Part shown: positions 3,001 through 14,000 of the stretch, piece by piece
How the letters are laid out: the number at the start of each line of letters is the position of its first letter
How positions within the stretch are numbered: the first letter of the stretch is position 1
Source: Zootoca vivipara
Lineage: Eukaryota
Length of the DNA stretch: 64,000 nucleotides
Direction of reading: 5' to 3'
NCBI RefSeq assembly: GCF_963506605.1
Contig: NC_083289.1
Coordinates: 54,126,001 to 54,190,000, forward strand
Made by a program: the position numbers

Positions 3001-5042
3001 ACAATTTATCTTTTAAAAGGTACTTGGATAATAATGGAATAAAAGCCCATGTTCAGATGGCAGCTCTGCGTGTTTGTGAGTTGTGTGTGTCGCCGTCCTC
3101 TTCCTGAGGGTGCCTGTGCTTGCGTTGGGGGAGAGGGGGGCGAAGCCTGCTCCAACATGGACTATTTGGGGCACCGATCACCTCAACCTGCACTGAGACC
3201 CCTCAGGAACTGAGCTCACTCAGATGTGGCCAATACGCAGCCCTGGTAGACACCGGACATGCTCTGGGACCCTTTTTCCATGTGGGGAACAGCAGCAGAA
3301 GCAGCGTTGCTCTTGCAATCTGCGCAGATGCAGCAACAGACCCCAATGGTCTGTGCTTGCAGCCTTTCCCTTCTCCCCGAGGAAGAGCCCTGTGTGACTT
3401 CTAAACTTGCTTCTCCTCTAGCGCTGCCGCCTTCTAACTAAGCTGCAGATATTTGCAGCTTTCTCCCCGGGATGGAGGCTGTCCCTGGGGAGGGTGGGAC
3501 ACGGGGGCTGCTATTAAAAGAAGAAGAAGAGGAGGAGGAGGAGTTTGGATTTGATATCCCGCTTTATCACTACCCGAAGGAGTCTTAAAGCGGCTCACAT
3601 TCTCCTTTCCCTTCCTCTCCCACAACAAACACTCTGTGAGGTGAGTGAGGCTGAGAGACTTCAGAGAAGTGTGACTAGCCCAAGGTCACCCAGCAGCTGC
3701 ATGGGGAGGAGCGGAGACACGAACCCGGTTCCCCAGATTACAAGTCTACCGTTCTTAACCACTACACCACACTGTTGCTGTAATTATCTGCATGTTTTTA
3801 ATAGATCATAATGATTGATAGATAGATTTCTGTTAGTGCTTAATTGCTTTTCAGTTGCTGCTTCCTTCGGATGTTTTCATCTGTAAGCCACCTTTGAGTC
3901 CCTTTCAGGGGAGAAGGCAGGATATAAATAAATATATAAAAACAAGGAGGAGGAGGAAGGGGCTGCTGGCCTCTTCCCAGGGCAGCATTTAGGCAGGAGG
4001 GGGGGGGCCTGATCAGTGGCGGGGGGGGGGCGAAGGGAGCTGTTGTGCCCTCCATTGCACAATTCTCACACGTGGCGGCTGTCCCAGATTCTCAGGTTTT
4101 TGGCCCCCGGCAAACGTGCAGCGGAGCCACGAAGGAAGCGAGGCCCTCGGAGGCCACGGCAGGCTCTACAGCTCGTCTCTTGGTTCTGGGGAGCCGGGTG
4201 GGCTCGTTCGATTCTCCTGGGGTTCCTCGGGGGTCTCAGCAGCCTGGAAAGCCAGAGCCCAGTGTCACCGTGGGAACGGGGACAAACTCAATGTTTGGGG
4301 TGGGCATGAGGGGTTGCCGCTGAAACTCACCTTGGGGTCGTCCTGGGGAGGGACCTCACCCCCGTTCTCCAAGAACGCCGAGAAGGATTCCAGCTCTCTG
4401 GTGCTCCGGTACTCGATCATCTGGGGCGGAAAACGGGGGGCGTTGGCCTGGCTTTGCCCCACAAGCGGCTGCTGCCGCCTCCCATCTACAGTACCTCCTG
4501 TCGCAGCCTCCTTGCTCTACTGTCCCATAGGACCCAGGCACATTCTGCAGAGGATCCCAGGAGCCACAGCACCGTCCCCCCCACCCCATGGGGCACCTGC
4601 ATTACCTTCTTGCCCTGCCCTGCAGGGAAGTAGTACAGCGTTGGGTAGGCTCGGATAGGGATCTCTGCTACCTCGTTGGCCGTGGCGTCCATCTCGGCGA
4701 TGAGGACATCCTCGCGGTCTTTATATTTCTCGCCCAGCTCTGCCCAGGCAGGCGCCATCGCCTTGGAGTGGGGGCACCAGGGGGCATCTGTGGAAGCGGG
4801 ATGGAGTTAGGAAGACGCAAGTCTGTTTTATCACCAGGCCAGTTCACCAAACTGCGGGAGGCAGTGCAAGACAGGAGTGCCTGGCATGCTATGGTCTATG
4901 GAGTCACAATGAGTCGGACACGACTAAACGACTAAACAACAACAACAACAAGTTCACCAGCTGCATCCCTCTCTGGAAAAAGCTGACCTGGAGAAAGTTG
5001 TGCAGGCTGCGTCCCTCATTAACACCTTGCTGTGGGGCTGTC

Positions 5043-5097
<55 letters not shown>

Positions 5098-11000: not shown

Positions 11001-14000
11001 AGCAGTTTGGCTTGGCTGCAGGAGTGCAGAGGCTCACGCGGGCCACTCACGGGGAAGAATCCGACCACCGCCACCACGTTGGCATCCAGGAAAGCAGCCG
11101 CCTGGCTGACATTCTCCAGCAGCACCGCACTGGGCCCAGCTTTCCGTTTCAGCCACTTCACGATTCCCTCGGCGTCTCGCTGGCCTGGCAAACAGGCGGC
11201 AAAAGTGTGAGTTGTGGGGCCACGCCACCTGCTGGACCAGGCGCTGCGTTAAGAATGGCACCACTCCTCTCTCTCGCAGGGGCTCATGGCGGCTGAGGTT
11301 CAGATGAGAATAAGCCCCTGGTGTGATGCCCGGGAAATCTAGGCGAGGAGCTGAAGCGAAGAGCTCTTGTTGCTTCCTCTGAGGTGAAGCCCTCATGTCA
11401 GGGAATGGCCTGGACCTGAAGATTGGGGGACGCAGTCGCAGGCAGATCAGCTCCTCTCAGAAGAGGAGGGAGAATACCCCCCCCCGGCTGCCTCCAGCGT
11501 AGAAGCAGAGAGAGAGGCAGAAAGAAACGTAGAAGCTGAACAGATTAGGGAGGAGTAGCTACGAACATGAGTCTGACCAAACTGCGGGAGGCGGTGCAAG
11601 ACAGGAGTGCCTGCTGTGCTCTGGTCTGGCCCATGGGGTCATGAAGAGTCGGACACGACTAAACGACTAAACAACAACAACAACCCAGCTACGAGAGAAT
11701 GACAAGAGATCTGGAAGGGAAGGGGCAGCTGGGAGACACATCAATTGAAAGTGTGTGTGGGGAAACCCCCTCCCTGACTCAGAGGTCCAAACAGATCAGA
11801 GAACAAAGGAGACTGAGAGGGGGAGGGACTTCCCATTGGTGTACTCCTTGCTGCGGAAGTCGGGCGTTGGAAGTCAGATTCAGAATAGGCAACTGATCTC
11901 CTTGCAGAGGGTTGTCTGTGTGTGCTTGCAACACGATGCTGTAATAAAGGACTATAAATCTATCAACTGCTCGTTGATTGTTATCTGTGAGCTACTGGAG
12001 GGAGAGGGGAACTCCCACGCTTGGCATCTCATGCCCAAAGAGCCACAGGACAAGAACCAAGGGAGACCCGAGCTGCTGCTGGATCAGGCCAAAGTCTAGT
12101 CTAGTCTAGCGTCTTGTTCTCAAAGGGCCAATGGGATGCCCCCAAAGGGACCTAAGGGCCACACCAATGCTTCCTTCCGGCCAATGGGTATTCAGAGACA
12201 CCAGGGTGGCGGAGAACACCATGCAAAACCACTGCCTCTTCTGACCTGTGAAGTCTGCCGGGTGAGTGCGGTTGCCATCTCTGAACAGCTTGAGGACGGG
12301 GAACCTGCTGACTCCGAACTCCGCGCTCAGCTCCTTCTCCTGCTCCCCGTCCACCTTGGCCAGCCTCAGCGCAGAGCCCTCCTCCTTCAGCAGGGCAGCG
12401 GCCTTGGCATACTCCGGGGCCAGAGCCTGGCAGTGCCCGCTCCAGGGGGCATCTGGGAGGGAAAAGGAGGAGGGGCGAAGCGTCAACCCCGCAGGCAACA
12501 AATAGCAGTGTGGAGCTGTGTAAGGACATCCGAGGAGCCTGCTGGATCGGGTCCAGCATCCTGTTCTCACAGTGGCCAGCCAGCAGCCCCACAGAGAAGC
12601 CCACAAGCGAGACCTGGGTGCGAGAGCTACTCTCCCCTCCTGCGGTTTCTGGCAACTGGCCTTGGGAAGCATTTGCTGTCTCTGACTGTGGGGCCAGAGC
12701 AACCCCATTGTGGTGGTGTGTGTGTGTGGGGGGGGTACATGCACCCCGGTGGGTGTCAGGAGCCACAGGCACAGCAGGAGGAGTGTGTGGTTCTTTGAGC
12801 TGCCCTCCCTCCTGTCCCATGGGGCAGGCTCTGTGGGCCTGGCATGCCATGTTTCCTCTCCCAAGAGGCTGCTGATAGCTGCTTCTGCTTAATCTCATCT
12901 CCTTTTTCGCCTTCCAGCGCATAGAACAGAGGCAGCTCTCTTGCTTGGTGGGGGTGATGGTGGTGGTGGGGGGGCTGGAAGGAGAGACAAGAGCTCCAAG
13001 AAGGGCACCCTTGCCAGAGGGGATGTCTCTTAACAGGGTCCGCCGTGCTCCCTCCCCTAAGCAACCAAGCAGCCACCCTCTGAAGGGGGCACTCTAGTTT
13101 TCCCCACCTGCCCCCTCCCAGCGCCTGCTGCTTTTCGCCTGGGGGTGCAGGCCAGGGGAGTCCCTGGTGGTGCCCTGTTCAAGTCCCCCCCCCAGCAGCT
13201 GCTACTCACAGAACTCCACCAGGAGCAGTTTGTGCTTCTGCAGGGCTTGTGCAAAGTTGCTCTGGTTGAGCACCAAGACCCCCTCGTCCTCCCGTTCCTC
13301 CTCTTCCTCTGCCTGGTTCCTGCCCTCCTGAGCCCCCAAAGGCTGCACTAAAGCCACCGCCAGCCCCACGGCCAGCAGGAGTCTCGGGAGGCAGCCCATA
13401 GTGGCCTGGAGGAGAGAGAGAGGCAGCAGAGTGGCGGAGCCAGGAGATGCCAGGCAGGGAAGGGGGCAGATAACGCTCCGGGGGCAAGCCTTTCCGTGAC
13501 GTGGAGCCAGAGTTTGCCCCACGTGGCCCTTCCCCACTGGCTGCCCGATAAGAGCTGCTGGGGAGGGGGTGCTGAACCCAAGGCAAACTGCTCTGGAAGC
13601 TCGGCAAACACCATCTTGGAAGTCAAGATAACCCCACCATTAATTGGAGCAATGAACTTATTTATACTCACTTGCTTTGATAGAAGCTAATTGGCCAACT
13701 TTGATGGCATCCGTGCTTTTTTTCTGGGGGTACTGGAGGGTACGCAGCACTGGCACCTTTTCCCCCTAGAAGAAAAGTGCTGGTTGCCAAGCAGGGCGAG
13801 ATTGCAGGATTGGGTTCCCTTGGAATGAAGGACAGCAGAGACTGTGGTGTTTGTAGGATCGATGGTTTATTTACATGCCTACAGCCTGAGCCAAAGATGG
13901 AGGATCTCGCAGCACTGACACCCCAAAAGGCCTTTCTTCTCTCATTGTGACAGCCTTGGAATCACCCCTAGATCAAGCCTGGCTTCTCAGCCTGCAGCCT

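What the first reader, a model, noticed from the sequence alone, without database searches (positions are those of the whole stretch)
4765..12441. PDIA2 has lost both CXXC motifs in complementary ways: SGHC (a) and CPHS (a')
Seen: the a domain reads YAPW-SGHC (AGC GGG CAC TGC, 12441-12430) and the a' domain reads YAPW-CPHS (TGC CCC CAC TCC, 4776-4765). Each Ser codon is one base from TGC, and the rest of the 527-aa frame, the signal peptide and RDEL are intact. Known: mammalian PDIA2 has CGHC and CTHC. The N-terminal Cys is the nucleophile, so SXXC is expected to be largely redox-inactive (as in PDILT), while CXXS forms long-lived mixed disulfides (ERp44 CRFS, yeast Eug1p). CPHS is exactly the AGR2 motif used on mucins. 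Inference: this PDIp cannot act as a normal oxidase and may have become a chaperone or thiol-retention factor. Two separate changes make sequencing error unlikely.
Basis: partly seen in the sequence, partly recalled or inferred. Interest (0 to 1): 0.75.

Follow-up and report, generated by a model that had tools for sequence, protein, structure and literature searches.

The report
Lizard PDIA2 with single-cysteine active sites
This lizard's PDIA2, an ER protein-folding enzyme, has one cysteine instead of two in each active site, and almost all lizards and snakes examined share this state, so it is an old, conserved change of function rather than an error or a dying gene.

Summary
On the minus strand, AGC GGG CAC TGC (12441-12430) reads SGHC after APW, and TGC CCC CAC TCC (4776-4765) reads CPHS after APW. 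Both lie in an intact 11-exon, 527-codon gene with AG/GT splice sites, a hydrophobic N-terminus and C-terminal RDEL.

The gene is the PDIA2 ortholog of a lacertid lizard. The state is not peculiar to this genome. Of 24 other squamate species, 22 have CPHS in a', one has CPYS, and only Hemicordylus has CTHC. Of 22 readable a-sites, 18 start with Ser. In 171 named non-squamate PDIA2 records, CxxC holds in 171/171 a-sites and 165/168 readable a'-sites.

In squamates the a' motif is nearly frozen (3 changes) while the a motif drifts (15 changes). Overall conservation matches canonical PDIA2.

Most likely reading: the protein can no longer cycle a CxxC disulfide, so it is not an Ero1-fed oxidase. 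It probably acts through the single a' thiol as a disulfide shuffler or holdase, with a redox-dead a domain. I found no paper describing this.

The parts
13210..13399 (-). Exon 1: ATG at 13399-13397, hydrophobic N-terminal signal-like segment (about 23 codons, 13399-13331, cleavage site judged by eye), acidic stretch, first strand of the a domain. Ends in phase 1 (T of the split Tyr codon).
   Evidence: donor T|gtgagt; aligns to residues 1-63 of P0001, 89%.
12246..12452 (-). Exon 2: core of the a (thioredoxin) domain.
   Evidence: Pfam PF00085 E 2.5e-14; TIGR01130 positions 27-88; best whole-chain matches PDIA4 (3idv) and human PDI (4ekz, a domain, 99.7 bits).
12430..12441 (-). a-site motif AGC GGG CAC TGC = SGHC; the nucleophilic first Cys is replaced by Ser.
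   Evidence: the same column is Ser in 18 of 22 readable squamate species and Cys in 171/171 non-squamate records.
11051..11184 (-). Exon 3: end of a, start of b.
10535..10675 (-). Exon 4: b domain.
   Evidence: PF13848 E 2e-4.
9672..9788 (-). Exon 5: b domain.
8016..8141 (-). Exon 6: b' domain.
   Evidence: PF13848 E 5.9e-4.
7641..7838 (-). Exon 7: b' domain (substrate-binding domain in PDI). Holds the only non-active-site Cys of the mature protein (codon 7670-7668).
   Evidence: PF13848 E 3.6e-7; Cys at exon residue 57; Cys in 24/24 squamate rows that cover the column, 7/17 others; aligns with a Cys of human PDI b'.
5923..6043 (-). Exon 8: linker and first strand of a'. Ends in phase 1 (T of the split Tyr codon).
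4606..4787 (-). Exon 9: core of the a' (thioredoxin) domain.
   Evidence: PF00085 E 6.7e-13; TIGR01130 positions 372-430; best single-domain match human PDI a' (4ekz, 66.9 bits).
4765..4776 (-). a'-site motif TGC CCC CAC TCC = CPHS; nucleophilic Cys kept, resolving Cys replaced by Ser.
   Evidence: CPHS in 22 of 24 other squamate species; 3 changes over W+4 columns on the squamate subtree.
4331..4420 (-). Exon 10: end of a'.
4166..4243 (-). Exon 11: acidic tail, RDEL (4180-4169) and TAG stop (4168-4166).
   Evidence: RDEL is also the ER-retention signal listed for ERp44 (PMC12384036 table).

Best explanation
This is the intact, expressed-type PDIA2 (PDIp) ortholog of a lacertid lizard, in the state that most squamates share: a = SxxC, a' = CPHS. 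SHOWN: neither thioredoxin domain has two cysteines in its active-site motif. The mature protein has only three cysteines. The a' motif, including its Pro and Ser, is almost invariant across squamates, while the a motif drifts. The whole protein is as conserved as canonical PDIA2 is in turtles, crocodilians and birds. INFERRED: because a CxxC disulfide cannot form, the protein cannot accept a disulfide from Ero1 or pass one to a client, so the oxidase and reductase cycles of mammalian PDIp are gone. The exposed thiolate of the a' Cys can still attack client disulfides. With no resolving Cys, the mixed disulfide is released only by a client thiol (disulfide shuffling, as in CGHS-PDI and Eug1p) or it persists (holdase or thiol-mediated retention, as in AGR2 and ERp44). 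The a domain would then serve as a redox-dead binding module next to the b' client-binding domain, and RDEL keeps the protein in the early secretory pathway. A snake data set points to the stomach as the tissue.
For: Identity and orthology. Best hits are named PDIA2, led by Podarcis muralis at 97% and 95% over the two exons. The squamate proteins form one clade (100/100) inside sauropsid PDIA2. Architecture is Trx / Trx_6 / Trx. The exons hit TIGR01130 in register and the public ortholog scores 466 bits against a cutoff of 344. An RGS-domain exon (32264-32740) and a FAM234A/B exon (43353-44078) lie on the same side as in the platypus order LUC7L-ITFG3-RGS11-ARHGDIG-PDIA2-AXIN1 (PMC2529266 passages).

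Age and constraint. a' is CPHS in 22/24 other squamate species and CPYS in 1. The a-site is S-first in 18/22. Non-squamate records are CxxC in 171/171 (a) and 165/168 (a'). Minimum changes over W+4 motif columns on the squamate subtree (18 rows) are 3 for a' and 15 for a; in 17 non-squamate rows they are 6 and 4. The per-exon identity ratio, squamates to archelosaurs, is 0.76-1.21, and 1.0-1.2 in b'. Branch lengths of derived-state lineages (Podarcis 0.18, Rhineura 0.15, Elgaria 0.13) are like that of canonical Hemicordylus (0.16).

Chemistry from the literature (passages seen). The first Cys attacks and the second resolves; CXXS catalyses isomerisation but not oxidation or reduction, and binds clients for longer (PMC12384036). 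Eug1p with 2x CXXS cannot carry oxidising equivalents (PMC2195995). Human PDIp accepts disulfides efficiently from Ero1-beta (PMC6238587). PDIp is also a chaperone independent of its enzymatic activity (PMC5595169).

Expression. Habu Table 2 gives the gene model labelled PDIA2 as stomach 59.1 TPM, pancreas 0.1 and all 18 other samples <=1.1 (PMC9146206).
Against: No biochemical datum exists for any squamate PDIA2, so every functional step is inferred. Conservation of CPHS shows constraint, not which reaction is selected. Hemicordylus keeps CGHC/CTHC, so the canonical enzyme is still viable in a squamate. Varanus (CRPC) and Elgaria (CGRC) keep two cysteines in the a-site, so a redox-active a domain may persist in anguimorphs and 'squamate-wide' holds strictly only for a'. 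The habu authors say their trees failed to support a habu PDIA2 ortholog, although their table labels a model PDIA2, and I could not see that sequence. It is a single snake with no replicate for stomach, and there are no lacertid expression data. The window's own full-length protein was never scored or folded, because the joined step was left out; full-length statements rest on the public Podarcis ortholog. No dN/dS could be computed because no other squamate DNA was available.
Confidence: 0.6

Rival explanations
1. Purely redox-independent chaperone (PDILT-like). The remaining cysteines are structural leftovers, and the protein works only by non-covalent client binding through b'.
For: PDILT has the same a-b-b'-a' layout with SKQS/SKKC and is thought to act mainly as a chaperone (PMC4894388 passages). 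PDIp has chaperone activity independent of its enzymatic activity (PMC5595169 passage). b' is the best-kept part relative to archelosaurs (ratio 1.0-1.2).
Against: A leftover motif should drift as the a-site does (15 changes). Instead the a' W-C-P-H-S columns show 3 changes, two of them the Hemicordylus differences, and the Pro is fixed although that position varies among A, G, P, S and T in non-squamates. The nucleophilic a' Cys is present in 25/25 squamate rows.
Confidence: 0.2
2. Still an oxidoreductase that uses another cysteine pair: a resolving Cys elsewhere, or inter-domain or inter-subunit disulfides.
For: ERp44 is thought to use a second Cys outside CRFS for release (PMC12384036 passage). 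The b' Cys is invariant in squamates (24/24 rows). Some squamates gained a Cys just before the a-site (6/22 rows), and snakes gained one at Podarcis position 99 (11/25 rows). Anguimorph a-sites keep two cysteines.
Against: The window's mature protein has only three cysteines. The b' Cys aligns with a Cys of human PDI b' and is present in 7/17 non-squamate rows, so it is an inherited feature and not a new partner. The extra cysteines are absent from the window's exons. No structure was computed, so distances are unknown.
Confidence: 0.1
3. A gene on its way to loss: relaxed selection after redundancy with P4HB and other PDIs, with the Cys losses as early decay.
For: The a-site degenerates in many directions. 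a' Cys losses also occur sporadically outside squamates: Mesoplodon STHC, Geotrypetes STHC, Microcaecilia STHS. This suggests PDIA2 redox function is dispensable more often than expected.
Against: The 527-codon frame, all splice sites, the signal-like N-terminus and RDEL are intact here. xDEL-type ends occur in most full-length squamate models. Conservation equals that of canonical PDIA2, CPHS is frozen, and expression in habu is tissue-specific (PMC9146206).
Confidence: 0.05
4. Artefact: sequencing or assembly error, or a mis-assigned paralog.
For: None found.
Against: The same residues occur in independently assembled genomes of 22-23 other squamate species. There is one copy only in the window. 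Synteny markers and tree placement fit PDIA2. PDILT is a much weaker match than PDI (34 vs 66.9 bits for exon 9; 43 vs 99.7 bits for exon 2).
Confidence: 0.02

Closest known systems
Mammalian PDIA2 / PDIp (pancreas-type PDI)
   Same: It is the ortholog: 11-exon gene, a-b-b'-a' layout, signal sequence and xDEL end, 63-68% identity over exon 2 for named mammalian hits, and the same chromosomal neighbourhood on the RGS/FAM234 side (PMC2529266).
   Different: Human PDIp is CGHC/CTHC, accepts disulfides from Ero1-beta and is listed as a pancreas protein (PMC12384036 table; PMC6238587). Here the motifs are SGHC/CPHS. In the one snake data set the labelled gene is stomach-specific with 0.1 TPM in pancreas (PMC9146206).
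Yeast Eug1p
   Same: A PDI1 homolog (~40% identical to Pdi1p) with two thioredoxin-like domains whose active sites lack the second Cys (CXXS). It cannot oxidise but is suited to shuffling (PMC2195995).
   Different: Eug1p has CXXS in both domains; here only a' is CXXS and a is SXXC. It is an independent, fungal origin and not an ortholog.
AGR2 (CPHS) and ERp44 (CRFS, -RDEL): CXXS 'holdase' PDIs
   Same: AGR2 has the identical four-residue motif, ERp44 has the identical RDEL end, and both use single-thiol chemistry with long-lived client binding (PMC12384036). AGR2 is listed as highly expressed in stomach, intestine and cervix.
   Different: There is no specific homology. Neither AGR2 nor ERp44 is among the 33 PDB sequences matched by exon 9 at E<=1e-5, which are PDI, PDIA3/4/6, TXNDC5, PDILT and thioredoxins. 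AGR2 is a single small Trx domain and ERp44 is a-b-b'. This is resemblance of mechanism, not family membership. The AGR2-mucin mixed disulfide is recalled, not seen in a call.
PDILT (testis PDI-like protein)
   Same: A vertebrate a-b-b'-a' paralog that lost catalytic cysteines and keeps an SXXC motif (PMC4894388).
   Different: PDILT is SKQS (a) and SKKC (a'), so it has no nucleophilic Cys at all; here a' keeps it. PDILT matches weakly. The habu paper reports PDILT was not found in snakes (PMC9146206 passage).
Engineered CXXS/CXXA 'trapping' mutants of PDIs
   Same: Removing the second Cys prolongs the client mixed disulfide (PMC12384036 passage). The squamate a' site is the natural equivalent.
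   Different: Those are laboratory constructs. This one has been fixed and conserved in a large vertebrate clade.

Membership tests
PDIA2 (PDIp) orthogroup | Closest relatives and tree position within vertebrate PDIA2 | tested here: met
   Named PDIA2 proteins dominate the hits to exon 2 and exon 9 searched separately. The squamate clade (100/100) is nested in sauropsid PDIA2 (99/97).
PDIA2 (PDIp) orthogroup | a-b-b'-a' domain order with signal sequence and C-terminal ER-retrieval tetrapeptide | tested here: met
   Pfam per exon gives Trx, Trx_6 (x3) and Trx in order. RDEL precedes the stop. The N-terminal hydrophobic segment was judged by eye; no signal-peptide predictor was available.
PDIA2 (PDIp) orthogroup | Conserved neighbourhood (ITFG3-RGS11-ARHGDIG-PDIA2-AXIN1) | tested here: inconclusive
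   RGS-domain and FAM234A/B exons lie on the expected side (PMC2529266; the equation ITFG3 = FAM234A is recalled). No RhoGDI-like exon was found (best E 0.77). A SET-domain ORF lies in that interval instead. AXIN1 was not looked for.
PDIA2 (PDIp) orthogroup | Catalytic CGHC (a) and CxHC (a') motifs | tested here: not met
   SGHC and CPHS. This fails the enzymatic definition but not orthology.
ER protein disulfide-isomerase subfamily (NCBIfam TIGR01130) | Whole-protein score above the curated cutoff (344.25 bits) | tested here: inconclusive
   Exons 2, 7 and 9 hit the model in register (positions 27-88, 275-331, 372-430), but single exons cannot reach the cutoff and the joined model was not scored. 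The public Podarcis ortholog scores 466.4 bits.
CXXS non-canonical PDIs (AGR2, AGR3, ERp44, TMX5; functional class) | Thioredoxin-fold active site with first Cys kept and second replaced by Ser | tested here: met
   CPHS in the a' domain (PF00085).
CXXS non-canonical PDIs (AGR2, AGR3, ERp44, TMX5; functional class) | Specific sequence homology to AGR or ERp44 proteins | tested here: not met
   Neither appears among the 33 PDB sequences matched by exon 9 at E<=1e-5.
CXXS non-canonical PDIs (AGR2, AGR3, ERp44, TMX5; functional class) | Long-lived mixed disulfides with clients | not testable with these tools
   Needs non-reducing immunoprecipitation or in vitro assays.
PDILT | Orthology to PDILT with SKQS/SKKC-type motifs | tested here: not met
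   PDILT chain 5xf7 scores 34.1 bits (exon 9) and 43 bits (exon 2), against 66.9 (best domain) and 99.7 bits for human PDI. The motif arrangement also differs.

The most novel reading that the evidence does not exclude
Early in squamate evolution, PDIA2 was converted from an Ero1-fed oxidase into a four-domain, AGR2-like single-thiol factor, arriving at the exact CPHS motif, that holds or shuffles a narrow set of gastric secretory clients. The fully canonical cordylid would then mean that the same three substitutions (C to S in a; T to P and C to S in a') were either acquired twice (skinks and Episquamata) or reverted once. Either would be a strong signature of selection on active-site chemistry rather than drift.
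Probability: 0.2. Interest if true: 0.72.

Novelty: new variant of a known kind. Interest (0 to 1): 0.55.

Why it matters
PDI-family biology has a handful of natural single-cysteine members (ERp44, AGR2/3, TMX5, Eug1p) and one cysteine-poor classical paralog (PDILT). This would add a case where a classical oxidase changed its active-site chemistry within an orthologous lineage while staying under constraint, with canonical outgroups and one canonical squamate as built-in controls.

In practical terms, the endogenous squamate protein is a natural equivalent of the CXXS trapping mutants used to find PDI clients. Its substrates might be isolated from tissue without mutagenesis, which could also shed light on the poorly known client range of mammalian PDIp.

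It is also a caution for annotation. These proteins are named 'protein disulfide-isomerase A2' in public records although they cannot carry out the oxidase cycle that the name implies.

Tried and rejected

(2) Geckos and tuatara: none appeared in the three protein searches (one search listed the best 120 of 3977). This is weak evidence only, and the deepest squamate nodes are unsampled.

(3) Hemicordylus placement. The quick tree pairs it weakly with Tiliqua (support 60). Placing it as sister to all other squamates is not rejected (p-AU 0.404). The careful tree with both skinks gives a seven-way basal polytomy. It is unresolved.

(4) ARHGDIG: tblastn with the N-terminal 165 residues of platypus read-through protein P0077 found nothing (best E 0.77).

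(5) I dropped the idea that loss of the Glu in the '..VEF' strand before the a-site marks catalytic decay, because that position also varies in canonical proteins: A in Pelusios, K in Gavialis, Q in Rhea and Puma.

(6) I dropped the idea that the invariant b' Cys is a newly recruited resolving Cys, because it aligns with a Cys in human PDI b'.

(7) By eye I took ORFs 23890-24495 (DEP-like) and 50027-50530 (HSP90-like) for known genes, but Pfam gave no family at E<=0.01.

(8) Literature. Searches combined PDIA2 or PDIp with squamate, lizard, snake, Anolis, reptile, CXXS, eggshell and Zootoca. They found no description of the motif change. Searches were dominated by papers that do not mention PDIA2.

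(9) Not done. The joined spliced model of the window was not searched, scored or folded; work was exon by exon, with the public Podarcis protein as the full-length stand-in. I did not use the search of protein representatives, the protein-atlas search, structure prediction, fold search or complex prediction. No squamate DNA other than the window was available, so there is no codon comparison or dN/dS.

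
Full report
OBSERVATION. On the minus strand an acceptor (cag) is followed by AT GCC CCC TGG AGC GGG CAC TGC, with AGC at 12441-12439 and TGC at 12432-12430. A second acceptor is followed by AT GCC CCC TGG TGC CCC CAC TCC, with TGC at 4776-4774 and TCC at 4767-4765. These read (Y)APW-SGHC and (Y)APW-CPHS, and each Ser codon is one base from TGC. 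The window holds no N.

GENE MODEL. From the stop-to-stop frames and the boundary sequences I derived 11 minus-strand exons, all with AG...GT: 13399-13210, 12452-12246, 11184-11051, 10675-10535, 9788-9672, 8141-8016, 7838-7641, 6043-5923, 4787-4606, 4420-4331 and 4243-4169, followed by TAG at 4168-4166. The frame starts with a hydrophobic, signal-like N-terminus (judged by eye; no predictor was available) and ends in RDEL. The exons were never joined.

WHAT THE GENE IS. Pfam on the separate exons gives Thioredoxin (exon 2), Thioredoxin_6 (exons 4, 6, 7) and Thioredoxin (exon 9), which is the a-b-b'-a' layout. Exons 2, 7 and 9 hit NCBIfam TIGR01130 (ER protein disulfide-isomerase) at positions 27-88, 275-331 and 372-430.
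- Exon 2 searched alone against longer proteins returned 120 hits, nearly all named PDIA2 and led by Podarcis muralis PDIA2 (527 aa, 97%). Exon 9 alone returned the same protein at 95%.
- Local tblastn of that public protein against the window reproduces my exon model exon by exon at 84-97% identity. It also shows a single copy in the window. The window therefore comes from a lacertid lizard other than P. muralis.
- An RGS-domain exon (32264-32740, +) and a FAM234A/B propeller exon (43353-44078, -) lie upstream. This agrees with the order LUC7L-ITFG3-RGS11-ARHGDIG-PDIA2-AXIN1 reported for platypus (PMC2529266, passages). That ITFG3 is FAM234A is recalled, not checked.
- ARHGDIG was not detected, and a SET-domain ORF sits in that interval instead.
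- No PDIA2 structure is in the PDB. The best single-domain match of exon 9 is the a' domain of human PDI (66.9 bits), and PDILT scores 34 bits. For exon 2 the figures are human PDI 99.7 bits and PDILT 43 bits.

DISTRIBUTION. I read the two motifs in every named PDIA2 record returned. Before counting I dropped 19 unnamed records, 7 non-PDIA2 proteins (a scorpion PDIA4-like protein and plant PDIL proteins) and one ape record.
- The 28 squamate records represent 24 species. The a' motif is CPHS in 22, CPYS in Liasis and CTHC in Hemicordylus capensis.
- The a motif is readable in 22 species. It is SGHC in 9 (eight snakes and the skink Tiliqua), SSHC in Podarcis, SKHC in Ahaetulla, SGQC in Liasis and SEPC in Erythrolamprus. 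It is SELC in Pogona, Sceloporus and Phrynosoma, and SDLC in two Anolis. That makes 18 with Ser first.
- The other four a-sites are AGHW (Lerista), CRPC (Varanus), CGRC (Elgaria) and CGHC (Hemicordylus).
- In 171 named non-squamate records (birds, turtles, a gharial, mammals, caecilians, a teleost) the a-site is CxxC in 171/171 and the a'-site in 165/168 readable. The three exceptions are Mesoplodon (STHC), Geotrypetes (STHC) and Microcaecilia (STHS).
- The window's exact pair, SGHC + CPHS, is thus the commonest squamate state and is shared by a skink, a lacertid and snakes.

GENE TREE. The motif columns were removed before building. Squamate PDIA2 is one clade (SH-aLRT 100 in the quick tree of 35 rows; 100/100 in the careful tree of 30 rows) on a stem of 0.22-0.25, nested in sauropsid PDIA2. 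Seven and twelve rows respectively of the 42-row alignment were left out, either as partial or odd models or to save time; they are listed in the call outputs. The families at the base are unresolved. Hemicordylus pairs weakly with Tiliqua (60) in the quick tree. Placing it as sister to all other squamates costs 1.02 log-likelihood units (p-AU 0.404). In the careful tree it sits in a seven-way polytomy.

Cordylids and skinks are usually placed in one superfamily (recalled). So the canonical cordylid implies one of three things: three reversals, three parallel substitutions in skinks and in the lacertid-iguanian-anguimorph-snake group, or lineage sorting or hidden paralogy at this locus. I cannot tell which. 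No gecko or tuatara PDIA2 turned up, so the origin can only be placed 'at or near the base of non-gekkotan squamates'. Ages of the order of 150-200 My are recalled, not computed.

CONSTRAINT.
- Mean pairwise identity per exon among 13 full-length squamate proteins, divided by the same measure among 10 turtle, crocodilian and bird proteins, is 0.76-1.21. It is 0.97 for the a core, 0.91 for the a' core and 1.01-1.21 for b'.
- Terminal branches of derived-state lineages are no longer than that of canonical Hemicordylus.
- On the squamate subtree (18 rows), the Trp plus the four motif columns need at least 15 changes in a (2, 2, 6, 5, 0) but only 3 in a' (0, 0, 1, 1, 1). Two of those three are the Hemicordylus differences.
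- In 17 non-squamate rows the figures are 4 for a and 6 for a'. All six a' changes are at the second motif position, which is fixed as Pro in squamates.
- So CPHS is held more tightly than the canonical a' motif is elsewhere, while the a-site behaves as released from selection on its xx residues and first position. Its last Cys is kept in 21/22 rows.
- The window's mature protein has three cysteines: SGH-C, one in b' and C-PHS. The b' Cys is present in 24/24 squamate rows, but it aligns with a Cys in human PDI b', so it is inherited and not new.

MECHANISM (inferred). According to passages in PMC12384036:
- the first Cys of the motif attacks client disulfides and the second resolves the mixed disulfide;
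- a CXXS version of PDI catalyses isomerisation but not oxidation or reduction;
- CXXS proteins hold clients longer, and mutating the second Cys makes trapping mutants.

Eug1p, with two CXXS sites, cannot carry oxidising equivalents and is 'suited for shuffling' (PMC2195995). Human PDIp accepts disulfides efficiently from Ero1-beta (PMC6238587), and it is also a chaperone independent of its enzymatic activity (PMC5595169).

Putting these together, the lizard protein cannot be loaded by Ero1 or donate a disulfide at either site. Its a domain lacks the nucleophile. Its a' domain keeps a nucleophile with no resolving partner. The best reading is a single-thiol shuffler or holdase on a PDI scaffold. 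Which of the two it is cannot be decided here. That a Pro-His dipeptide makes the thiolate unusually reactive, as in DsbA, is recalled and untested.

EXPRESSION AND LITERATURE. In Table 2 of a habu (Protobothrops flavoviridis) study, the gene model labelled PDIA2 has 59.1 TPM in stomach, 0.1 in pancreas and <=1.1 in the 18 other samples (PMC9146206, passages and table seen). The same paper says its trees failed to support a habu PDIA2 ortholog, and I could not see the sequence or the supplementary trees. Human PDIp is listed as a pancreas protein, and AGR2 as cervix, intestine and stomach (PMC12384036 table).

A preprint lists PDIA2 among Zootoca eggshell-formation candidates, with episodic diversifying selection in oviparous snakes (10.1101/2023.10.22.563505, one passage seen). 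I could not follow that up because the source study was not in the library and supplements were closed. None of my searches found a description of the squamate active-site state. The public records simply carry the name 'protein disulfide-isomerase A2'.

VERDICT. It is a clade-wide, constrained variant of a known enzyme, not a private oddity, an error or a pseudogene. It works like the CXXS class (AGR2, ERp44, Eug1p) in a' and like PDILT in a, but by descent it belongs to none of those families: it is PDIA2. Novelty: a new variant of a known kind. Interest is moderate. The distribution and constraint evidence is solid, but function is inferred and the origin (one event, parallelism or reversal) is open.

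Noticed in passing
window 21123-21977 (+): An ORF with a SET domain (Pfam PF00856, E 8.2e-12) lies between PDIA2 and the RGS gene, where the platypus order has ARHGDIG. No RhoGDI-like exon was found with the N-terminal part of P0077 (best E 0.77).
   Followed up: partly
window 22001-24000: GC content is 0.737, the highest in the window, so it looks like a CpG island. It lies just before an ORF (23890-24495, +) that looked DEP-like by eye but gave no Pfam family at E<=0.01. It may be the 5' end of the RGS gene whose RGS-domain exon is at 32264-32740.
   Followed up: partly
window 43353-44078 (-): A large exon with the start of a FAM234A/B beta-propeller (PF23727, E 1.1e-10). Taken as the ITFG3/FAM234A neighbour; the alias is recalled.
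   Followed up: partly
window 50027-50530 (+): An ORF that by eye resembles the N-terminal ATPase exon of an HSP90-family protein (TRAP1-like; recalled). Pfam gave no family at E<=0.01.
   Followed up: partly
window 4887-4949 and 11622-11684: Two copies (87% identical over 63 nt) of a repeat ending in an (AAC)n run, one in intron 8 and one in intron 2 of PDIA2. Probably a SINE-type element with a microsatellite tail.
   Followed up: no
related proteins (alignment; Podarcis positions 64 and 99): The Tyr just before the a-site is Cys in 6 of 22 squamate rows (skinks, Pogona, three colubroid snakes). Snakes carry an extra Cys at Podarcis position 99 (11 of 25 rows). Neither occurs in the 17 non-squamate rows or in the window.
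   Followed up: no
related proteins P0070, P0090, P0095: Outside squamates, the a' nucleophilic Cys is replaced by Ser in a beaked whale (STHC) and two caecilians (STHC, STHS). These are 3 of 168 readable records.
   Followed up: no
related proteins: a' is CPHC in 10 of 168 readable non-squamate records (e.g. the passerine Pyrgilauda). This shows Pro at that position is tolerated with both cysteines present, and CPHC is a plausible intermediate towards CPHS.
   Followed up: no
related proteins P0005, P0033: The two anguimorphs keep both a-site cysteines but lost the His (Varanus CRPC, Elgaria CGRC, the latter also with Gly for the preceding Trp). Their a domains may retain a different redox chemistry.
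   Followed up: no
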